A stretch of DNA of 64,000 nucleotides, from positions 612 to 64,611 of the forward strand of contig JADHYC010000004.1 in NCBI GenBank assembly GCA_016782645.1. The letters run 5' to 3'. The notes beneath the pieces were generated by a model, which was given only the letters and a program-made list of their open reading frames with translations, was not told where the DNA came from and ran no database searches. Source of the DNA: Fidelibacterota bacterium (lineage in GTDB: Bacteria; Fidelibacterota; UBA2242). This document shows positions 56,560-64,000 of the stretch, in pieces (the first letter of the stretch is position 1; each line of letters starts with the position of its first letter). A program made the translations under genes and the position numbers.

Positions 56560-56632
56560 GGCTCGGTAGCTCAGTCGGTAGAGCAGGGGACTGAAAATCC
56601 CTGTGTCGGCAGTTCAATTCTGTCCCGAGCCA
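56560..56632 (+). tRNA. tRNA-Phe (anticodon GAA)
   Basis: 73-nt cloverleaf: acceptor GGCTCGG/CCGAGCC, D arm GCTC-AGTCGGTA-GAGC, anticodon stem-loop GGGGA-CTGAAAA-TCCCT (GAA at 34-36), T arm GGCAG-TTCAATT-CTGTC, discriminator A. Close to E. coli tRNA-Phe. Confidence 0.95.
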
Positions 56633-56642
56633 CACTCCAAAC

Positions 56643-56680
56643 CCTTTGTAAATCAACAGTTTACAAGGGGTTTTTTATTT
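56643..56680 (+). terminator. rho-independent terminator after tRNA-Phe (CCCTTTGTAAA…TTTACAAGGGG + T6AT4)
   Basis: 11-bp near-perfect stem followed by TTTTTTATTTT. Confidence 0.6.
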
Positions 56681-56709
56681 TCTACATTTCAGGTGAAATG
56701 TAGCCAATA

Positions 56710-56760
56710 GGGACAAATAGGGACATACTGGGACATAGGGTAGTGACTTTTTGGTGACTT
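56710..56760. repeat. phased direct repeats GGGACA x3 (10-bp spacing) and GTGACTTT x2 next to the attL side
   Basis: GGGACA at 56710, 56720, 56730. GTGACTTT at 56743 and 56753. Helical-turn phasing suggests recombination-directionality or integrase arm-type sites. Confidence 0.45.
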
Positions 56761-56835
56761 TAGCAGGATACATTTCCTGTGTAAGTGGATATATTTCCGT
56801 AGTTTGTGAGGTGTGGGGACAGGGTTATATGAAAA

Positions 56836-56866
56836 TAAAAAAAACCCGGACGGAAATCCGGGTTTA
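56836..56866 (-). terminator. rho-independent terminator of integrase gene (CCCGGATTTCCGTCCGGG + T8 on minus strand)
   Basis: Plus-strand sequence AAAAAAAACCCGGACGGAAATCCGGGTTT lies 21 nt beyond the int stop. Confidence 0.6.
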
Positions 56867-56886
56867 ATAATAACTGCGGAGAAAAT

Positions 56887-57915
56887 TCAACGATATTTTA
56901 TCAATCCATCAAGTGCTTTAACACCGCTTAATAAATTGTCTTCCAATAGGTCGGCATAATGCTTTTCAGTAACTTTAACTGAGGAGTGTCCCAAGAGTTT
57001 TGATACAGTAAAGATATCTACTCCTGATTGTACAAGCAGACTACCATAAGTCTTCCGAAACGTATGAATATTGGCATTCTCAATACCGGCGGCTACGTAG
57101 TACTTATGTATCTTTTTAAACAGATATTCATAATTAAAGTCAAAGGGCTGTTCATGTTTTTCTGCAAACTTGCGACGGTCAAGTATTTCATATACTGTAT
57201 CATTAATAGGGATGAACCGGATCTTATTTCTCTTTCCAATTAATTTGATTCTTCTTCTTTGAAGATCAACATTGTCCCAGGTAAATCGTACAGGTAATAT
57301 TTCTTCTCTCCTGGCGCCGGTATGGAGGTACATTAAGATTAAATCGCGGTAATTTGGATCGTCGGTAACATCCAATAACCGATTAATTTCATCGATGGTA
57401 AGAAACCGAATACTATGTTCTTTTTGTTTTGGTCCATTTAATCCTTTTGTAGGATTGTTTTCAAGATAACCATGTTTGATCATGAAGTTGAAGAATGCTC
57501 TCAGGGTTCTGATCTCGATACCAATCGTGGCGGGTGTTAAACCATCAGTTTTATATCTTTTATTGATATAGCCTTCCATGTCTTTTAATCCAATTGAACG
57601 CACGGTTAGGTTTCCGATATAATTCACAAAGGGCTTATATACCTTTTTCTCTCTTTTAATGGTTGATGCTTCTTTTTGTGTTTCCATAACTCTCAGATAA
57701 TGTAAGAAAGCCCTTTCGAGGGTAATCTTTTTATCGCTACCGTTGTCAAGTCCGAGTAATATTCTGGACTTTTTATACTCGATCTGTTTTGCTAAGGCTT
57801 CTGCTGTTTTTCTGTCACAATATAGGCTCTTAACATGTCGTTTTCCATCAGAATCATAATAGTCAATTTTATATCCTTCACCCTTGCCAGTGATAATTTT
57901 TCTAATCGATGCCAT
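56887..57915 (-). CDS. int: tyrosine-type site-specific integrase
   Basis: C-terminal catalytic region HTFRKTYGSLLVQSGVDIFTVSKLLGHSSVKVTEKHY (R…HxxR…Y). The ATG at 57915 is preceded by GAGGAGG. The ORF-track TTG at 57942 is less likely. Confidence 0.85.
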   Translation of the reverse strand: MASIRKIITGKGEGYKIDYYDSDGKRHVKSLYCDRKTAEALAKQIEYKKSRILLGLDNGSDKKITLERAFLHYLRVMETQKEASTIKREKKVYKPFVNYIGNLTVRSIGLKDMEGYINKRYKTDGLTPATIGIEIRTLRAFFNFMIKHGYLENNPTKGLNGPKQKEHSIRFLTIDEINRLLDVTDDPNYRDLILMYLHTGARREEILPVRFTWDNVDLQRRRIKLIGKRNKIRFIPINDTVYEILDRRKFAEKHEQPFDFNYEYLFKKIHKYYVAAGIENANIHTFRKTYGSLLVQSGVDIFTVSKLLGHSSVKVTEKHYADLLEDNLLSGVKALDGLIKYR

Positions 57916-58108
57916 TGATGACCTCCTCGTAATATTTGTCAATAGATTTGATTTCTTGAATAATTTGCTCCAGGTTGGATTCTTTAATCCTGATACCAGA
58001 GCCTACTCTGTAGACTTGAATGTTGTTTTCATGTACAAGTCTCCGCAGTGTCTTGACAGACACATCCAGCAATGCTGCTGCTGATTTGAGACTGTACAAC
58101 TGTTCCAT
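57902..58108 (-). CDS. excisionase-family helix-turn-helix DNA-binding protein (Xis/AlpA-like)
   Basis: 68 aa, LKSAAALLDVSVKTLRRLVHENNIQVYRVGSGIRIKESNLEQI matches the excisionase/MerR-type HTH_17 pattern. Overlaps the int start by 14 nt. Confidence 0.65.
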   Translation of the reverse strand: MEQLYSLKSAAALLDVSVKTLRRLVHENNIQVYRVGSGIRIKESNLEQIIQEIKSIDKYYEEVINGID

Positions 58109-58349
58109 TTTTCTTATTCCTTATTTTAATTTGATTTCGTTTTGTTAAAGACCTTTCACTCGTATAACTACCTACAAGTAGTTTTTAAATTGAGAGTAGC
58201 GCGTTGCTGCTTACGGCTTCACCAATATTCCAGCACGCAAATGAGTGTTTTGTCCAATTGGCTAACTGGTAGCCGCTTTTACTCAATTAATACTACAACT
58301 CACAAAAATTTGCGTGAATTAATGTATATGCATGGTTATTAAGTATTTA

Positions 58350-58640
58350 CAGACTGTGTATAGACTTTTTAAAACCGTGGTTTTATACACAAAATGTTAT
58401 AGTTTAGGTACAATAAAGGGGCTAAACAGCCCCTTTTAGTGTATCTAATGACATACTCTAATTAGATGATTATACGTAGGTTATGTATTGATATTTTAAA
58501 GTTGTGTATAGTAAATCGGTTATACACAGAAATAACCGGTAAAAACAGGTAGATTTTTACGTTTTAGGCGTAATTTCCACCCAATTGGGCCCAAAATCAG
58601 AGTTTTCGTGTATATTTGTGTATGAATTTTGTGTATAATT
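58350..58640. promoter_or_regulatory. 680-bp gene-free control region with at least 7 copies of TGTGTATA / TATACACA in both orientations
   Basis: Copies at 58356, 58384 (inverted), 58504, 58521 (inverted), 58609, 58618 (degenerate) and 58631. Lies between the leftward int/xis and rightward replication genes, so probably operators and divergent promoters. Confidence 0.5.
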
Positions 58641-58788
58641 TTTATCCAAATATAAGGTAATAAATACCGTTGATTTTACACTGTAAAAAATTCTCTGAAA
58701 AAAATTCCATTTTAAAAATAATTGTGGTTTTCCATAAAATAATTGATTTTCCTCTTGATTCTTTGCCCAAAATGTAGTATATTAAAGT

Positions 58789-59289
58789 ATGGGGCAAAAG
58801 AATTATTCACGACGTTTACTCCTAACGGATCCGAAAAATTTTGGTCTGGAATTTTCCGGGAACAGCCTGGAAAATTTCCTGAAATCCTACGAGGATAGGA
58901 AAATTTTACCCCGCCCGATCACAATCGGAGATAGATCTCTAAAAAGAGGAACCAAAAGAGGATACTATTTTCCGGTCTTTATTGAAATGATAAAGGATCT
59001 GCAGTATCTTCGGGGTACAAAAAAATACAGACCCCTGGGTATCAAAGAATGGTTAGAAAATAAGTATGCCCGTGTATATAATTTATATGACATCGCGGAA
59101 CTGTTCCGATTGCAGTTTCTGCCAGAGAGTGTATTAGTTGAATATTTAAATAACTCTCACCTAACTAATACCCAGAAAGATAAAGTGATGGCGTTTTATG
59201 AAAACCATCCGAGTTATCAGGAGGTAAAAAAGAGCATTCTTAATATGCTCTCTCAGATAAACATCAGCAGTGAGGCTGATATGAGATAA
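58789..59289 (+). CDS. hypothetical protein of mobile element
   Basis: 166 aa, basic. First rightward gene after the control region. Confidence 0.5.
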   Translation: MGQKNYSRRLLLTDPKNFGLEFSGNSLENFLKSYEDRKILPRPITIGDRSLKRGTKRGYYFPVFIEMIKDLQYLRGTKKYRPLGIKEWLENKYARVYNLYDIAELFRLQFLPESVLVEYLNNSHLTNTQKDKVMAFYENHPSYQEVKKSILNMLSQINISSEADMR

Positions 59290-59651
59290 TGATAAACAAC
59301 ATATTTTTATTATACAAAGATGCCGGTCTGCTCTATTCATGGAGCGATTGGCATTGTTTTATTTTAAATCAGGAATCAAAAATGAACACAACAATAACAA
59401 CTGATTTTTATTTAACAGCATACCTGTTAAGTGAAAATATACCCCTTGTAAAACATACGAGGAGTAATAATAAGTCAACTTTTGAATTTACCGGCGATAA
59501 TATTTCAGAAATCATGGAGAAATATTATTCCGGCAATGCGATGGTTTCAATAAATAAATACGCTGAAGCCATGCGAGAATTAAAAAACATCATGTACAAT
59601 GATACATCTATACACCAACCAATAAACAACTATGAAAGGAAATATTCTTAA
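59289..59651 (+). CDS. hypothetical protein of mobile element
   Basis: TAATG overlap with the upstream gene. An alternative start is the ATG at 59380 (MNTTITTDF…) with an AGGA RBS. Confidence 0.45.
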   Translation: MINNIFLLYKDAGLLYSWSDWHCFILNQESKMNTTITTDFYLTAYLLSENIPLVKHTRSNNKSTFEFTGDNISEIMEKYYSGNAMVSINKYAEAMRELKNIMYNDTSIHQPINNYERKYS

Positions 59652-61653
59652 TGATACGATTGAGTTATCATTAATTGAAAAGAACTATAATGGCAGCCAG
59701 AACATCTGGTTTGAAAGTAAAAAAATACAGATTAAAGACCTTGAAAAGATATTTAAAACAAAAAATTACTCAACGATTAAATGGCGTGATGGAAACAGAA
59801 AAGAAAACAACTTTCTATCCTCAGCAGGATATATAGTTGATATTGATGAAGGACTTTCAATACACGACGCCGAGACACGATTAAAAAAGCATAAACTAAA
59901 TTATATCATTGCTCCGAGCAAGAGCCATACACCGGAAAAGCACCGCTATCATATAGTATTATTATTTAACCGAACGGTTAGATCAATAAATACCTATAAG
60001 AAAATAGCAAAACATCTTACATCTGAATTATTTCCGGAATCCGATCAAAATGTTTCTGATGGCGCCAGGTATATTTACGGATCACCGGATACAGTTAATG
60101 CCACATCATGGTTTGAGGGTAATTATTTTGAAGTTGATAAATTTGGTGAACTGTGGGATTCATCATTAGAGTTTATGGATTCAGATGATAATACATTAAC
60201 TGTAGGAGATCTGGATGAATCTGAAAAAACTAAAATACATTGTCCGTTTCACAATGATGAGAACCCATCGGCATTTGTAGAATATTCAGCCAGAAGTGAT
60301 AACTGGTATATATACTGCTCATCATGTGGTAAAACCTTCTGGAAAGAGAAAAATGCTAACCCCAATGAAGTCAAATGCAAGGACCTCTGGTCACACACTG
60401 ATAATGTTTACCAATTTGGTATTGCCGGAGAGGAGTTCTTCATTGAAAGAGTAGGATTGAAAAAGTTTTATGCAATGACTGGCTCCAGTAAACCAACGGA
60501 AAAGGAAAATATATACCGATATCTTATAAAACATAAACATATTCCACATATCACCCGTGTAGATCACCTTGCTGATATAGATGCTGATAAATCATATTAT
60601 AATGTTAATCTTAGCGAAGGAGTCATAAAAGTTCATTATTCAGGTATTGAAGACAAGATAAAGGATAACCAGTTCGTAGAAAATTATCTTGAAGATACTT
60701 TTAAACAATATAAAGATTTTATCAAAGAGTACCTGGCAGTGTTCTGCTATACCAACTACTTGAAACTTCCTACTCTTGTTCTATCTGGTGATAGAGGAAC
60801 CGGGAAGTCAACATTTGTAGAGATTGTAGGCGATATTTTTAAACCTTTGACTACAGAGTGGTGCGGCAATGAAAGTAATTTTACACCTGAAGTAGAGAAG
60901 AAATTGTTGATAGTAGAAGAGAATGATATTGTTCACAAATCTCAGTACAAGACCTTAAAAAAGTATTCCGGCCAAAAATATTCCAAAGTGAACAAGAAGT
61001 TCACTCCGGTATATTCGGTTCGGAATAATATGAATATTATTCTTCTATCAAATGATGCGATTGCTTTGTACGTAAAAAAAGAAGAATTGCCCGCTGATGG
61101 AAAAAATAATCAGTTCCTCGTATTCGAATTTCAACAGTTTAAAGGCCCTATTGATGCTTCCATTCAAGATAAGATCCTTGATAGATTAGGACATTATATC
61201 AGGACTGAATTAAAATCAGTTTATGATCATCTTAACTTTTCGAGTTACAGGTACAGTATAAATGTACCTATTACAGATGCTGAAAAGGCTTTGTTTAGGA
61301 ATAATGCAACTGATATAGAATTAGACACCGACAAGTTTATACAGCAATTGAATGATCTTTATAACAGCAAATCGGCAACAATTGAACCGGGTTTTATTGA
61401 TGAAGGGTTCTTGGTAGCATCAGTTTTTGACACAATATATTTTGTTGAGAAAATCCGTAATAAGGTTATCAGAAATCTTTACTCAAGGCGTTTTTTGAAG
61501 GACATTGAGCCAATAAAGAAGCAGATTAACAAAAAAAGATTATATTGTTATACCATGACTGATAGGCTTAAGAATGAAATTACAAAATCTTTTAGTTGTA
61601 AATCAGCGCCTGAAAATAGAAATCAACTAAATTTAGGCTATGAAAAGCAATAA
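59632..61653 (+). CDS. replication protein: primase-type N-terminal domain, Zn-ribbon, SF3 (D5/P4-alpha-like) helicase
   Basis: HCPFHNDENPSAF…CSSCGK zinc motif, Walker A GDRGTGKST, Walker B LLIVEEND. 673 aa. Followed immediately by iterons. Confidence 0.75.
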   Translation: MKGNILNDTIELSLIEKNYNGSQNIWFESKKIQIKDLEKIFKTKNYSTIKWRDGNRKENNFLSSAGYIVDIDEGLSIHDAETRLKKHKLNYIIAPSKSHTPEKHRYHIVLLFNRTVRSINTYKKIAKHLTSELFPESDQNVSDGARYIYGSPDTVNATSWFEGNYFEVDKFGELWDSSLEFMDSDDNTLTVGDLDESEKTKIHCPFHNDENPSAFVEYSARSDNWYIYCSSCGKTFWKEKNANPNEVKCKDLWSHTDNVYQFGIAGEEFFIERVGLKKFYAMTGSSKPTEKENIYRYLIKHKHIPHITRVDHLADIDADKSYYNVNLSEGVIKVHYSGIEDKIKDNQFVENYLEDTFKQYKDFIKEYLAVFCYTNYLKLPTLVLSGDRGTGKSTFVEIVGDIFKPLTTEWCGNESNFTPEVEKKLLIVEENDIVHKSQYKTLKKYSGQKYSKVNKKFTPVYSVRNNMNIILLSNDAIALYVKKEELPADGKNNQFLVFEFQQFKGPIDASIQDKILDRLGHYIRTELKSVYDHLNFSSYRYSINVPITDAEKALFRNNATDIELDTDKFIQQLNDLYNSKSATIEPGFIDEGFLVASVFDTIYFVEKIRNKVIRNLYSRRFLKDIEPIKKQINKKRLYCYTMTDRLKNEITKSFSCKSAPENRNQLNLGYEKQ

Positions 61654-61654
61654 A

Positions 61655-61841
61655 GTGTCCAGAGTGTCCATGAAGTGTCCAAGAAATATGCGTGCTTTGG
61701 ACACCGTAAATCACTGTATATTAATAAGATAGAACAATGTGTCCAGAGTGTCCATAGAAAATATATAGAAAAAAAATAATTATAATTATGATTACTAAAA
61801 AATACTTTATATTGTCAAAAAACACTGGACACTTTGGACAC
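61655..61841. repeat. iteron array: GTGTCCA x5 direct (61655, 61664, 61675, 61739, 61748) and TGGACAC x3 inverted (61698, 61826, 61835); putative origin of replication
   Basis: Starts 2 nt after the replication gene stop. 9-10-nt phasing. Followed by an AT-rich tract incl. (TA)7 at about 61893-61906. Confidence 0.65.
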
Positions 61842-62078
61842 TTTTTAAACCATGCAGCAAGATATTTAAAGTAAAAAAAAGCATTTTTGGCGTTTTCCTA
61901 TATATATATATAGGAACTCGCCAATTTTGCCTTTTTTGAAAAAAGGAGAATAAAATAATGAATTTATTTGTCCAAAAACCCCGGATTTTAAAAACCAAAA
62001 ACTAGTATGCTAAAAGTAAAAAGATGTAATTTTCACGAGGAGAAGTTGAGGAAAACAATACCTAAAAGGAGTCAATAA

Positions 62079-62252
62079 ATGAAATATTTTAAAAAATCAA
62101 AAGTGAAATTAACAGGCGTTTCACTTGAAGATAATGATATCCAGGTACCTGATAAAGTCGAGGTATCAGAGCGCATGCACAAGGACAAAATCGGGGGATT
62201 GTTTGCACCCTTGAGTAAGAAGGAAATAAAAGTAGTGAAACCCAATAATTAA
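62079..62252 (+). CDS. possible small protein (57 aa)
   Basis: AAAGGAG RBS 7 nt before the ATG. MKYFKKSKVKLTGVSLEDNDIQVP…. Below the ORF-track size cut-off. It conflicts with the minus-strand ORF 62089..62316, which lacks any signal. Confidence 0.35.
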   Translation: MKYFKKSKVKLTGVSLEDNDIQVPDKVEVSERMHKDKIGGLFAPLSKKEIKVVKPNN

Positions 62253-62638
62253 AATCTTCCCTATTTTCAAAAGGAGTCTCTGCAGGGCGGTTTAATATAA
62301 TACGGGGTACCAACATCCCCAGCAGAGCAAAGTAAAAATGCTTTTTATACTGGAAAACGATTCCCAGAAATTTTTTTATATTTTTTTCAGACTTCTATTA
62401 AGCGATTTCTCCAACCACACAACTCATCATGTAGAATGGAATACGGGTTTAAATTTAACGATTTTCTACTTGGTACGGATATCTCACTAATTTACCTGAA
62501 AGCCAGGGAAGATAAACCGGTAATAAAAAGAGAGTGTTGATTCCTATAAAAGCGACCAATTTCATATAACGGTTCTGTGTATAAGCCGTTACGCAGCTAT
62601 GGATTATACACATTGTTGTAGCCAGTTTAATTAAGCTA

Positions 62639-63184
62639 TTATTGTATCTTTTTTATAGTCACAACAATCCAATCCCCCTCTAATACCATTTTTGTAGTAC
62701 AACCATAATCTTTTGAAATTTGTTCATGGGATCCATTCATCATTTGAAACAATTCATCAGATGTAACTCCCCATCGCCCCTCGTACCCCATGTTCTTAAA
62801 ATAAGAACCCGAAGGAATCTTAAAGATCAGCAAACTGTCTGATTCTTTTTCAATTACACTTTTCGAATCAGATTCTTTTATGAATTTAGACCAACTATTC
62901 AAGAGCCTTTGGGCATAGTTTTTAAAACTAGCTGCACTGCCACTTGATGCTCTTTTCGATGCTCTTGACTCTGCAAATAATTTTCCATAAAACGCCCCAT
63001 ATTCATAAGGGGATACATTATGGCTTTTAGCGAAACGGATTCCTGGTATAAGGTGACTCCAGAAACTATTGACCATACTATTATGTTTCTGTTCAACAGA
63101 ATATTCAGGGATCGTAAACATTTCTTGACATAGGACGGTTGCTGAAAATGAAATACAAATTGTTAATAAAATGAGTTTCTTCAT
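62639..63184 (-). CDS. secreted hypothetical protein (element cargo)
   Basis: Signal peptide MKKLILLTICISFSATVLCQ. AAAGGA RBS. Confidence 0.55.
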   Translation of the reverse strand: MKKLILLTICISFSATVLCQEMFTIPEYSVEQKHNSMVNSFWSHLIPGIRFAKSHNVSPYEYGAFYGKLFAESRASKRASSGSAASFKNYAQRLLNSWSKFIKESDSKSVIEKESDSLLIFKIPSGSYFKNMGYEGRWGVTSDELFQMMNGSHEQISKDYGCTTKMVLEGDWIVVTIKKIQ

Positions 63185-63428
63185 CGTTGTGATCCTTTTA
63201 AGGTTTATGTGGTTTAGATATCAATTTTATCATGTAGTTTTTAAATTGGCTACAACGGTTGGGGGATATGGGAAGTTCGTCCAGTCAGGGCGAATTTGTG
63301 TGAAAGACCCGCAGGGTCGTGAACCCCATATCCCCCTGTTGTGCGACCGTTGTTTGGCGTTTTTGTTAATTATCATTTATCATACAAATATATATATTTG
63401 TTTAAGATTGAGCATTATTCTTCCATTG

Positions 63429-63635
63429 TTACCATATGACCCCAAGAGCTGCCAAGATTCCTAAAATGATGAGAATTACCCCTACAACCACGTAAAACCC
63501 ATGTACCTTCTCACCCCAAAGCATCTTTGACCGAGCAACCATAAGCCGATAAACAATAAAATTGCTTTTTAACAGGGCAGAGACTAACATAAACAAACCT
63601 ATTGCAATAAATGCTAATCCCCATATTGACTCCAT
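63429..63635 (-). CDS. small two-TM membrane protein (holin-like size), hypothetical
   Basis: 68 aa. Strong RBS AAGGAGGTG 8 nt upstream. Two hydrophobic helices. Confidence 0.55.
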   Translation of the reverse strand: MESIWGLAFIAIGLFMLVSALLKSNFIVYRLMVARSKMLWGEKVHGFYVVVGVILIILGILAALGVIW

Positions 63636-64000
63636 ATTCTATTCACCTCCTTTTTCATTTATTGTAAGTAGTGACGAAATATCTAGCCACCTACCTTTTT
63701 ACCCTTTAAAGTTACATTTTTCGATGACATCTTTATCGCACAGTATACACATCTACAAATGAATATAAATATATTATGGAAATGCTTAGCCAAACAATGT
63801 CGTACAACGTTAGTGTAAACGCCATATTGCGTGTATTTTTACTATATCTGTTCTAATAATGGCACATATACTCCATATTTGGGAGGATATGTACCATAAT
63901 CTCATTATTGATAAATTTATTTTATTCATTTGTAGCAAGTTTTAAACTGTCTATTGGACTTTTTATTTTATTAAATGCACTTTTAGTAATATGTGTATAA

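What the first reader, a model, noticed from the sequence alone, without database searches (positions are those of the whole stretch)
56560..64000. Integrated element at tRNA-Phe with satellite-like (P4/PICI-type) layout
Directly after tRNA-Phe(GAA) the gene order is: int (leftward), a small Xis/AlpA-like HTH gene (leftward), a 680-bp repeat-rich divergent control region, rightward small ORFs, a primase/SF3-helicase replication gene, an iteron array immediately downstream of it, then cargo (secreted protein, small membrane protein). This leftward-integration / rightward-replication layout with an ori right after rep matches phage satellites (P4 alpha-crr, SaPI/PICI pri-rep-ori). Such elements are poorly described outside Proteobacteria and Firmicutes. 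The element exceeds 7.4 kb and continues past the window, so packaging-interference or defence cargo could lie just beyond.
Basis: partly seen in the sequence, partly recalled or inferred. Interest (0 to 1): 0.7.

Follow-up and report, generated by a model that had tools for sequence, protein, structure and literature searches.

The report
Small integrating replicon beside integron-like array
Next to a tRNA-Phe gene of an uncultured marine bacterium (Marinimicrobia) lies a 5.8-kb element that can integrate and probably copy itself, and its supposed cargo is really an adjoining integron-type array of swappable single-gene cassettes headed by an unusual recombinase.

Summary
After tRNA-Phe come a leftward integrase and excisionase-type HTH gene, then a 680-bp repeat-rich region. 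A rightward operon follows, ending in a primase-helicase, with eight GTGTCCA iterons directly after it.

The replication module (DUF5659 + primase-helicase + downstream iterons) belongs to a large undescribed family in Marinimicrobia, Zixibacteria, Ignavibacteria and Bacteroidota. Members often sit beside tRNA or tmRNA genes. By marker genes the core resembles minimal satellites (PICMI, "Type C PICI"). No packaging, capsid or relaxase gene was found. No circular contig and no relative in phage, plasmid or IMG/VR collections was found either. Satellite status is therefore unproven.

The "cargo" is something else. From about 62.4 kb rightward, read on the minus strand, lies an integron-like platform. 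It consists of a second tyrosine recombinase running off the window end, an attI-like site, and two single-gene cassettes each closed by an attC site. A covariance model trained only on relatives' attC sites finds exactly these two sites. One metagenome contig lacks one cassette, with the junction exactly at the attC crossover point. The recombinase lacks the insertion that defines integron integrases.

No attR was found, so whether the array travels with the element is open.

The parts
56560..56633 (+). tRNA-Phe (GAA), left border of the element
   Evidence: ARAGORN; Rfam RF00005 69.4 bits. One metagenome assembly breaks inside it: L015 ends at 56599 and L002 starts at 56561.
56639..56680 (+). 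Hairpin plus T-run, terminator-like, after the tRNA
   Evidence: Terminator scan; sequence.
56706..56740 (+). Direct repeats AATAGGGACA x2 plus CTGGGACA. Candidate integrase arm-type sites (inferred).
   Evidence: TRF; sequence. L051 has GTTCCCACCAA repeats at the same place between its tRNA and int.
56842..56865 (-). Terminator-like hairpin after int
56887..57942 (-). Tyrosine integrase int1 (342-351 aa)
   Evidence: PF00589 E 3.9e-21, PF13102; phrog_1 E 1.1e-60.
57902..58108 (-). HTH_17 / excisionase-family gene (AlpA/Xis-like), overlapping the int start
   Evidence: PF12728 E 5.5e-10; TIGR01764 above cutoff.
58109..58788 (.). Divergent control region. TGTGTATA/TATACACA inverted pairs at 58355/58384 and 58503/58521, and direct copies at 58604-58637.
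   Evidence: Function not shown.
58789..59289 (+). orf166, no family match
   Evidence: No Pfam, PHROG, NCBIfam, PADLOC or PDB hit. Replaced by unrelated genes in relatives.
59289..59651 (+). DUF5659 protein, constant partner of the primase
   Evidence: PF18903 E 3.5e-09. Found directly upstream of the primase in 70 loci.
59632..61653 (+). Replication protein: AEP-type primase domain, CHC2 zinc site, D5-like SF3 helicase
   Evidence: PF19263. Invariant D70/D72/H99/D138, C204/H207/C229/C232 and Walker A. Structure model and fold matches.
61655..61841 (.). Putative origin: 8 GTGTCCA iterons (5 forward, 3 reverse) around an AT-rich stretch
   Evidence: Repeats after the primase stop are found family-wide.
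61874..61937 (.). Palindrome with 32-nt arms centred on ATATATATAT, next to the iterons
   Evidence: I1.
62079..62252 (+). orf57, small conserved protein after the origin
   Evidence: 67% identical to the 62-aa gene at the same place in L051.
62368..62414 (.). Right end of the homology with the closest relative: the junction between core and cassette array
   Evidence: 95.7% identical to L051 13224-13270, whereas the primase DNA is 71% identical.
62415..62563 (-). Distal array segment after attC2, holding a 36-aa ORF (62453-62563). Status unclear.
   Evidence: Sequence. Absent from L051.
62564..62621 (-). attC site 2 (R'' CTACAAC ... R' GTTATAT)
   Evidence: CM R1 25.1 bits, E 1e-4 and E 0.003 over 223 kb. 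Crossover point of the L008 deletion.
62639..63184 (-). Cassette gene sec181, product with a hydrophobic, signal-peptide-like N-terminus (read by eye)
   Evidence: ORF. Absent as an exact 686-bp unit in L008.
63250..63344 (-). attC site 1 (R'' GCACAAC ... R' GTTGTAG)
   Evidence: CM R1 19.9 bits, E 0.002. Hairpin -39 to -49 kcal/mol. All assemblies branch here, at 63254-63308.
63429..63635 (-). Cassette gene tm68, small protein with two hydrophobic stretches (read by eye)
   Evidence: ORF; context.
63785..63921 (-). attI-like region with R box taacGTTGTAC (63801-63811)
   Evidence: Alignment with the same region of L136, L138 and L141. Contigs L009 and L010 end at 63811 and 63809.
63922..64000 (-). 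3' end of the second tyrosine recombinase int2 (385 aa; runs to about 65079 beyond the window)
   Evidence: L005 extends the window by 1734 bp. NF040815 230.8 bits. 100% identical to P0121 of a Marinimicrobia MAG.

Best explanation
Two recombinase-driven systems lie side by side downstream of tRNA-Phe in a Marinimicrobia genome.

(1) 56.63-62.41 kb is the roughly 5.8-kb core of an integrative, autonomously replicating element.
- A tyrosine integrase and an excisionase-type HTH protein form a leftward operon.
- A rightward operon (orf166, DUF5659, primase-helicase) is followed by the element's origin: eight GTGTCCA iterons around an AT-rich stretch, then a small conserved gene.
- Inferred mechanism: Int plus the HTH protein excise the element as a circle. 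The Rep protein binds its iterons, melts the AT-rich DNA, primes with its AEP domain and unwinds with its SF3 helicase.
- How the copies reach a new cell is not shown. A helper phage (PICMI-like satellite) is the most likely single route, but it is unproven.

(2) 62.42 kb to beyond the window end, read on the minus strand, is an integron-like cassette platform.
- A Xer-like tyrosine recombinase (int2) is transcribed towards an attI-like site.
- Two single-gene cassettes follow (tm68, sec181), each ending in a folded attC site.
- Cassettes are cut out and inserted by recombination at the G/TT of the R' boxes.

The same core/array junction occurs in the closest relative at a different tRNA. The array is therefore probably attached to the element rather than adjacent by chance.
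For: Core element.
- Domain and structure evidence for int, HTH_17 and Rep.
- Iteron statistics.
- The 300 nt after the primase stop hold an 8-mer repeated 3 or more times in 60 of 81 related loci, against 2.5% of 5911 control windows. The repeat sequences differ between lineages.
- L051 has its own repeats / AT-rich / inverted-repeat arrangement at the same place.
- 115 related loci were recovered. DUF5659 is directly upstream of the primase in 70 of them, integrases are present in 28, and many sit beside tRNA or tmRNA genes.
- The same divergent layout is seen in L051, L055, L017, L057 and L105.
- The host is a Marinimicrobia MAG.

Integron-like array.
- int2 and its position.
- Close homologues of int2 (73-83% identity) in three independent loci are each followed by co-oriented unrelated genes separated by attC sites.
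- The cassette hallmark is met. The R box that opens a cassette is complementary to the R'' that closes it. L138: GTTATGC/GCATAAC, GTTGGGC/GCCCAAC, GTTGTGC/GCACAAC. L141: GTTATGT/ACATAAC, GTTGGCA/TGCCAAC, GTTAGGC/GCCTAAC. Window: GTTGTAG/CTACAAC 7 of 7, GTTGTAC/GCACAAC 6 of 7.
- The consensus fold of 11 relatives' attC sites has 20 pairs, 14 of them with compensatory changes.
- The covariance model built from those 11 sites, none from the window, gives exactly two significant hits in 56-64 kb: 62564-62621 and 63250-63344. Both are on the minus strand and full length. It also gives one strong hit in L051 (E 1e-12).
- The attI regions align across the four loci.
- L008 carries the exact attC1 x attC2 deletion product...CCCCCAACCGTT|ATATGAAATT, 686 bp shorter.
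- Every assembly breaks at one of the three R boxes.

Link between core and array.
- Window 62368-62414 is 95.7% identical to the L051 junction, while the chromosomal flanks differ (tRNA-Phe/M28 peptidase against tRNA-Arg/sigma-70).
Against: - No attR was found. No repeat of 10 nt or more from the tRNA-Phe 3' part or the attL zone occurs anywhere up to 65734. The limits of the element, and so excision itself, are not demonstrated.
- No circular contig and no empty site was seen.
- int2 lacks the IntI-specific insertion. Catalytic K to HxxR spacing is 64 aa against 107 aa in VchIntIA, and positions 181-244 of TIGR02249 are unmatched. By the accepted definition it is not an integron integrase, and its activity on attC sites is inferred from context only.
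- The window has only two cassettes.
- More distant relatives of int2 (40-50% identity, IMG/VR loci) mostly show no attC hit with this model.
- In L141 the same kind of array is chromosomal, with housekeeping genes upstream and no primase element in the 10 kb upstream of the integrase. Arrays of this type therefore do not need the element.
- The source contig itself could not be fetched.
Confidence: 0.7

Rival explanations
1. The core, with or without the array, is a phage satellite of the minimalist kind (PICMI-like, or P4/PICI-like in layout). A helper phage triggers the HTH protein, the element excises and replicates from its iteron origin, and it is packaged into helper capsids, perhaps as concatemers, without capsid-remodelling genes of its own.
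For: - int (PF00589), HTH_17 (PF12728) and a DUF5906 primase (PF19263) are the three mandatory element genes of the published PICMI model. PICMI115 is 6.1 kb and the core here is 5.8 kb.
- The Rep fold is closest to phage NrS-1 and to SaPI5 and PriRep1 satellite primase-helicases.
- The origin lies directly after rep, as in SaPI/PICI.
- Relatives carry phage-type recombination genes (Gam, PD-(D/E)XK nuclease) and large variable cargo that includes DUF499.
Against: - No packaging, terS, capsid, ppi, cpm, sid, psu or delta gene is present here, and none forms a recurrent cluster among the ORFs of 117 loci.
- There is no relative in 2.9 million IMG/VR contigs, by two scans, or in 50,697 phage records.
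- No circular or concatemer-like contig was seen.
- int + AlpA + primase alone is 'Type C PICI', which the SatelliteFinder authors decline to call satellites.
- No helper phage is known for Marinimicrobia (my knowledge).
Confidence: 0.25
2. It is an integrative mobilizable element of the Bacteroidetes NBU type. It would excise, replicate briefly, and be transferred through the conjugation pore of a co-resident conjugative element.
For: - Int with a SAM_5 N-terminal domain, an HTH_17 excisionase and a primase are also the backbone of NBU-type elements of the related phylum Bacteroidota (my knowledge).
- A marine subfamily of relatives carries DUF932 and RadC genes, which are common in conjugative and mobilizable elements.
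Against: - No relaxase, Mob or coupling-protein match was found in any visible gene of the window.
- None was found among the ten recurrent gene clusters of the relatives that were scanned against Pfam.
- The primase has no homologue in 72,556 plasmids.
Confidence: 0.12
3. The integron-like array is an ordinary chromosomal (sedentary) platform. The primase element merely integrated at a tRNA gene that happens to lie at the far end of the array. The two are unrelated neighbours, and the element ends at about 62.3-62.4 kb.
For: - In L141 an array of this type is chromosomal, with PFK and PFOR genes upstream of the integrase and no primase element in the 10 kb upstream of the integrase.
- Among more than 100 primase loci, an int2-type integrase of similar identity is found only in the window. 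The best other matches reach about 34% (L038, L100).
- The homology between the window and L051 stops at 62414.
Against: - The closest relative, L051, sits at a different tRNA in a different chromosomal context. It is also followed by a leftward array with a strong attC (E 1e-12), and it shares a 47-nt junction at 95.7% identity.
- No att repeat is present near 62.3-62.4 kb.
Confidence: 0.3
4. The block is a decaying remnant of an old integration event, no longer mobile. The repeats are leftovers.
For: - No attR, no circle and no empty site were observed.
- There is a 47-nt remnant of a DUF2779 gene end at 62368-62414.
Against: - All six core ORFs are intact, with overlapping operon-style junctions.
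- Catalytic and Walker motifs of Rep are conserved.
- The iterons are 8 exact copies.
- In sample ERZ24794676 the element contig has 28x coverage against 36x for the chromosomal flank, and the assembly breaks inside the tRNA. This fits presence/absence polymorphism.
- A cassette indel is segregating in nature.
Confidence: 0.08

Closest known systems
PICMI (phage-inducible chromosomal minimalist islands of Vibrionaceae; PMC10803314)
   Same: A roughly 6-kb element whose only recognisable functions are a tyrosine integrase, an AlpA/HTH_17-type regulator and a DUF5906-type primase. It has no capsid-remodelling or packaging genes. It is marine.
   Different: PICMI integrate next to fis, not at a tRNA. 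Their induction, rolling-circle replication and packaging by a virulent helper were shown experimentally. Here none of that is shown. The host phylum is different, the Rep is a 673-aa AEP-SF3 fusion with an iteron origin, and a cassette array is attached.
SaPI / PICI pri-rep-ori replication module
   Different: There is no Stl-type master repressor, no terS/ppi/cpm packaging operon and no pac or cos site identified. Sequence identity is only about 13%.
Satellite P4
   Same: Integration at a tRNA gene. A leftward int and a rightward replication gene that fuses primase and SF3 helicase. Accessory genes next to the core.
   Different: From my knowledge, P4 alpha has a TOPRIM-type primase domain, whereas here the fold matches AEP PrimPol domains. 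No sid, psu, delta, epsilon or cnr equivalents were found. P4's ori and crr differ in arrangement.
Chromosomal integrons with the integrase transcribed towards attI (Treponema type; PMC3607928)
   Same: Integrase, then attI, then co-oriented promoterless-looking single-gene cassettes, each closed by an attC with R''/L''/L'/R' boxes. The crossover is at G/TT. Cassette content is polymorphic between strains.
   Different: int2 lacks the IntI-specific insertion near patch III that defines integron integrases (PMC4889954, PMC9668308). It carries an extra N-terminal region of about 105 aa. Its best solved relatives are archaeal XerA proteins. Marinimicrobia is not among the phyla listed in a 2021 review as having integrons (PMC8618304).
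NBU-type integrative mobilizable elements of Bacteroides
   Same: tRNA 3'-end integration, an Int of the Bacteroidetes type, a small excision helper and a primase gene (my knowledge).
   Different: No mob or relaxase gene and no oriT were found in the visible sequence.

Membership tests
PICMI satellites | Co-located int (PF00589), AlpA-type regulator (PF05930 or PF12728) and primase (PF13148 or PF19263) | tested here: met
   PF00589, PF12728 and PF19263 all hit within 5 kb. Model definition in PMC10803314.
PICMI satellites | Integration downstream of fis | tested here: not met
   The element is next to tRNA-Phe. The neighbours are an M28 peptidase and a penicillin amidase.
PICMI satellites | Induction by a helper phage and packaging in its particles | not testable with these tools
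   Indirect only: no relative in IMG/VR or in the phage collection.
PICI (SatelliteFinder model) | At least 4 of 5 core components. The paper names integrase, AlpA and primase/replicase; the remaining components are packaging and capsid-morphogenesis functions (partly from my knowledge). | tested here: not met
   Only int, the AlpA-like gene and the primase are present. No PHROG or Pfam packaging or capsid hit. That makes it 'Type C', which the authors exclude.
P4-like satellites | sid / psu / delta capsid-size and regulatory genes alongside an alpha-type primase | tested here: not met
   No such family hit in any ORF from 56.6 to 65.7 kb. The Rep N-terminus matches AEP folds.
tRNA-integrated genomic island | Direct repeat of the tRNA 3' part at the far end (attR) | tested here: not met
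   There is no copy with 3 or fewer mismatches of the 21-nt 3' end in the window. No match of 12 nt or more occurs to 65734. No shared word of 10 nt or more other than a T-run was found. The far end may lie beyond the available sequence.
Iteron-controlled replicon | Cluster of repeated Rep-binding sites next to an AT-rich region, adjacent to rep | tested here: met
   8 GTGTCCA in 187 bp. Family-wide enrichment of 74% against 2.5%. Binding itself was not tested.
Integron | attC sites: R''-L''-loop-L'-R' imperfect palindromes closing each cassette | tested here: met
   The independent covariance model hits 62564-62621 and 63250-63344. The structure shows covariation in relatives.
Integron | Cassette signature: the R box opening a cassette is complementary to the R'' closing it | tested here: met
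   7 of 7 and 6 of 7 in the window. Perfect series in L138 and L141.
Integron | Cassettes are independently mobile units | tested here: met
   L008 lacks exactly the 686-bp sec181 cassette, with the junction in the shared AACCGTT. This rests on a single contig.
Integron | Integrase with the IntI-specific additional domain near patch III | tested here: not met
   23 aa where VchIntIA (2a3v) has 66. TIGR02249 is matched in two pieces and scores 226 bits, below its cutoff of 265.
Integron | attI site next to the integrase gene | tested here: inconclusive
   A conserved region with ...ACACTAAC|GTT lies 60-120 nt after the integrase stop in four loci. Function was not tested.
Integron | Pc promoter reading into the cassettes | tested here: inconclusive
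   Only consensus-level promoter-like matches on the minus strand at 63946-63919 and 63769-63742. Their number is no higher than in shuffled sequence.
Integrative mobilizable element (NBU type) | Relaxase (Mob) gene and oriT | tested here: not met
   No relaxase family hit in the window ORFs or in the ten recurrent clusters of relatives that were scanned. An oriT cannot be recognised by sequence alone.

The most novel reading that the evidence does not exclude
A clade of Xer-like tyrosine recombinases lacks the extra domain thought to be essential for integron integrases, yet heads genuine attC-cassette arrays with actively exchanged cassettes. In at least two lineages such an array is physically joined to a small tRNA-integrating, self-replicating element. 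That would make a mobile, possibly phage-borne, integron carrier in uncultured marine and sediment bacteria of the FCB group.
Probability: 0.3. Interest if true: 0.8.

Novelty: new variant of a known kind. Interest (0 to 1): 0.6.

Why it matters
**The core element.** Small int-xis-primase islands are the raw material from which phage satellites are being discovered, and almost all known cases are in Proteobacteria and Firmicutes. This gives a well-delimited replication module: DUF5659, an AEP-SF3 Rep and lineage-specific iterons. It is shared by more than 100 loci in Marinimicrobia, Zixibacteria, Ignavibacteria and Bacteroidota. These are phyla with no cultured phage-host systems.

**The cassette array.**
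- It corrects the annotation of the 'cargo'.
- It shows integron-style cassette exchange in Marinimicrobia, a phylum absent from a 2021 review's list of phyla with integrons (PMC8618304).
- Its recombinase would fail the standard IntI test, so tools such as IntegronFinder would report these arrays as integrase-less (CALIN).
- If this recombinase really processes attC sites, the accepted requirement for the IntI-specific domain needs revisiting.
- Part of the many unexplained CALIN arrays could then have an explanation.

Tried and rejected
**Searches that found nothing**
- Rfam scan of 56-64 kb: only the tRNA.
- Search for attR: nothing. The same search in eight relatives found a clear tRNA-end repeat only in L023.
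- Circular form: none of the 135 loci held at that point has a terminal overlap.
- Viral origin: two IMG/VR scans with the primase (single sequence and profile) found nothing. tblastn against phages and plasmids found nothing.
- PADLOC: no defence family apart from a weak MADS HTH match for the HTH_17 gene.
- PDB sequence searches for orf166 and DUF5659: nothing.

**Sequence that could not be obtained**
- Source contig to the right of the window: the species is not in the genome collection. The identical integrase P0121, on a 67,486-bp NCBI MAG contig, is not in the contig index. Only 1734 extra bases were obtained, through L005.
- More distant int2 relatives: P0165 is not on record, and the L143 contig ends just after the integrase.

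**Ideas tested and dropped**
- DnaA-box reading of TTATACACA. The motif fits TTATNCACA, but all 8 window hits have N = A, and the count for the degenerate pattern is not significant (8 against 3.6 expected; 6 of 100 shuffles reach it). Dropped as a generic DnaA-box cluster.
- The control-region inverted repeat as a third attC, which would make the whole replication block a giant cassette. The arms and spacing match attC2, but the covariance model does not support it (E 0.86 and on the wrong strand). The divergent int/rep layout is also conserved in relatives without arrays. Rejected, though the similarity is left unexplained.
- Generalising the attC association to the whole int2 family (8000+ hits at about 50% identity or more). 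This is not justified. Only 2 of 16 IMG/VR loci with 24-51% relatives gave attC hits.

Full report
**1. The observation**

- ARAGORN finds one tRNA in the window, tRNA-Phe(GAA), at 56560-56633. Rfam agrees.
- A terminator-like hairpin follows it.
- A short array of direct repeats (AATAGGGACA x2, CTGGGACA) follows that.
- On the minus strand lies a tyrosine integrase at 56887-57942 (PF00589, SAM_5; phrog_1 E 1e-60). A 68-aa HTH_17 / excisionase-family gene at 57902-58108 overlaps its start.
- The 680-bp gap at 58109-58788 holds 5 of the window's 11 TGTGTATA copies (2.2 expected), arranged as two inverted pairs and a run of direct copies.
- Rightward come orf166 (no match in any library), a DUF5659 protein and a 673-aa protein with DUF5906.
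- Directly after its stop codon, 8 of the window's 11 GTGTCCA heptamers lie within 187 bp, five forward and three reverse, around an AT-rich stretch.

**2. The replication protein**

- An alignment of 30 homologues keeps D70-x-D72, H99 and D138 invariant. These are the pattern of archaeo-eukaryotic primases.
- It also keeps a Cys-His-Cys-Cys zinc site at 204-232 and a Walker A motif.
- The AlphaFold model built on that alignment is confident (pLDDT 86).
The comparison with the SaPI/PICI pri-rep module holds at the level of fold.

**3. The family**

- The protein is 100% identical to a hypothetical protein of a Candidatus Marinimicrobia MAG.
- 174 homologues with E up to 1e-5 were found. The 120 listed are 36-61% identical, and those that carry an organism name are mostly from Marinimicrobia, Zixibacteria, Ignavibacteria and Bacteroidota MAGs.
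- I fetched 35 genomic and 80 metagenomic loci.
- Clustering all their ORFs shows that only two genes are constant: the primase, and a DUF5659 gene directly upstream of it in 70 loci. Tyrosine integrases occur in 28 loci.
- Many loci lie beside tRNA or tmRNA genes.
- The 300 nt after the primase stop contain an 8-mer repeated at least three times in 60 of 81 loci, against 2.5% of control windows. The repeated word differs from lineage to lineage.
- An origin directly after rep is thus a family trait, and its specificity co-evolves with Rep.
- The five closest relatives keep the divergent int-HTH / DUF5659-primase layout. Several carry long and different accessory regions.

**4. Is it a satellite?**

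For:
- int, an HTH_17 regulator and a DUF5906 primase are exactly the element genes required by the published PICMI model. PICMI115 is 6.1 kb and has no packaging genes.

Against, or simply lacking:
- No packaging, capsid, sid/psu/delta or terS gene was found in the window or as a recurrent cluster in relatives.
- Two scans of IMG/VR found nothing. Phage genomes and plasmids gave nothing either.
- None of the 135 loci held at that point is circular.
- The SatelliteFinder authors state that int + AlpA + primase alone ('Type C PICI') is not enough to call a satellite.
- No relaxase was found either, so a mobilizable element is no better supported.

I rate the satellite reading at about one in four.

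**5. The 'cargo' is an integron-like array**

Metagenome contigs carrying the window's proteins all break at the same places.
- L001, L002, L011 and L012 end at 63308.
- L005, L006, L007, L009 and L010 start at 63254.
- L009 and L010 end at 63811 and 63809.

L005 extends the window by 1734 bp. It shows a 385-aa tyrosine recombinase (int2) on the minus strand, at about 63922-65079, co-oriented with the 68-aa and 181-aa genes. NCBIfam places int2 in 'tyrosine recombinase/integron integrase' (NF040815, above cutoff).

Close homologues of int2 (73-83% identity) in three independent loci are each followed by strings of co-oriented, unrelated genes. Their spacers hold textbook attC sites, of the form R''(nnnnAAC)-L''-loop-L'-R'(GTTnnnn). 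They show the cassette signature, in which the R box that opens a cassette is complementary to the R'' that closes it.

The window has the same organisation when read on the minus strand.
- An attI-like box, taacGTTGTAC, at 63801-63811.
- attC1 at 63250-63344 (R'' GCACAAC, R' GTTGTAG).
- attC2 at 62564-62621 (R'' CTACAAC, R' GTTATAT).

Eleven attC sites of the relatives fold into a common structure of 20 pairs, 14 of them with compensatory changes. A covariance model built from them, with no window sequence included, gives exactly two significant hits in 56-64 kb. These are the two sites above, on the minus strand and full length. The attI regions of the four loci align.

Contig L008, from an independent metagenome, reads ...CCCCCAACCGTT|ATATGAAATT. 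That is attC1 joined to the sequence after attC2, and it is 686 bp shorter. This is the exact product of attC x attC excision of the 181-aa cassette.

An integrase transcribed towards attI and the cassettes is known from Treponema integrons.

**6. What is unusual about int2**

- Integron integrases are defined by an extra domain near patch III.
- int2 has 23 residues where VchIntIA has 66. Catalytic K to HxxR spacing is 64 aa against 107 aa.
- It matches TIGR02249 only in two pieces and scores below the cutoff.
- Its best solved relatives are archaeal XerA proteins.
- It has about 105 extra N-terminal residues.
- By definition, then, it is not an IntI. [quoted passage not shown]
- Its activity on attC sites is inferred from context and from the natural deletion, not shown.
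- The association should not be extended to the whole family of over 8000 sequences. Of 16 IMG/VR loci with 24-51% relatives, only two gave attC hits.

**7. How the two parts relate**

- Homology between the window and its closest relative L051 (primase 61% protein identity, 71% DNA identity) runs from int to 62414. It ends in a 47-nt stretch that is 95.7% identical.
- In L051 this stretch is the end of a DUF2779 gene. That gene begins a leftward, co-oriented gene string containing a strong attC (E 1e-12).
- The chromosomal flanks differ: tRNA-Arg and sigma-70 there, tRNA-Phe and an M28 peptidase here.
- The same junction in two contexts suggests that array and core move together.
- Against this, L141 shows a chromosomal array with no primase element in the 10 kb upstream of its integrase, and no other primase locus has an int2-type integrase of comparable identity.
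- No attR was found up to 65734, so the question stays open.
- In one sample the element contig has 28x coverage against 36x for the flank, and the assembly breaks inside the tRNA. This fits presence/absence polymorphism but does not prove it.

**8. Verdict**

- It is partly wrong: the cargo is a cassette array with its own recombinase, and nothing phage-related lies just beyond the window.
- The core is a new member of a poorly described kind.
- The array is a variant of the integron theme whose recombinase fails the defining IntI test.

Noticed in passing
window 58354-58392 and 58502-58529, compared with 62575-62613: The control-region inverted repeats have the same TGTGTATA/TATACACA arms as attC2. 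The first pair also has the same 29-nt arm spacing and a GTTATAG box beside it. The attC covariance model nevertheless does not call them (E 0.86). They could be the operator of an element regulator or a relic recombination site. This is not resolved.
   Followed up: partly
window 61874-61937: A palindrome with 32-nt arms (81% complementary) centred on ATATATATAT lies immediately right of the iterons. It may be part of the origin.
   Followed up: no
window 62453-62563 (- strand): A 36-aa hydrophobic ORF (MKLVAFIGINTLFLLPVYLPWLSGKLVRYPYQVENR) starts inside the R' box of attC2, in the last segment of the array. It is followed by a 29-nt remnant of a DUF2779 gene end.
   Followed up: no
window 56561-56615; loci L015 and L002 (sample ERZ24794676): The assembly breaks inside tRNA-Phe. 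The chromosomal contig ends at 56599 in the anticodon loop at 36x coverage, and the element contig starts at 56561 at 28x. This may reflect cells without the element or with another insert.
   Followed up: partly
L062-L088 (marine metagenome loci): A marine subfamily has a fixed gene order: DUF5659, primase, several 60-75-aa genes, then a 240-aa Cys-rich protein, a PD-(D/E)XK nuclease, DUF932, RadC and a roughly 200-aa integrase-like ORF. This is a different element built on the same replication module.
   Followed up: partly
L023 7811, 7947, 12510 and 19566: The 3' end of tRNA-Leu(CAG) is repeated three more times (14-18 nt) around the primase module. This suggests tandem or nested elements at one att site. 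It is the only relative in which att repeats were seen.
   Followed up: no
L025 and L040, 13228-13440: The 5' part of tRNA-Ser plus its upstream flank is repeated in tandem every 80 bp, two further times, on the side of the tRNA away from the element.
   Followed up: no
L141 10991-11331: The integrase reading frame seems to continue after the called stop. The region contains several copies of a short palindromic unit (GATCCCTTTGGGA-like), possibly a miniature insertion disrupting the integrase.
   Followed up: no
L154 1276-1397 and L157 3906-3989: In two IMG/VR contigs with 40-49% relatives of int2, an attC-model hit lies upstream of the integrase and on the opposite strand. That is the classical divergent integron orientation.
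   Followed up: no
L055 14972-17104; L017 13592-21920; L105 13215-19777: The closest relatives without cassette arrays carry long rightward accessory regions. These include a DUF499 protein and proteins of over 1000 aa, which could be defence systems (the link between DUF499 and defence is from my knowledge). They also carry a sigma-54-activator-like gene between the HTH gene and the replication operon.
   Followed up: no
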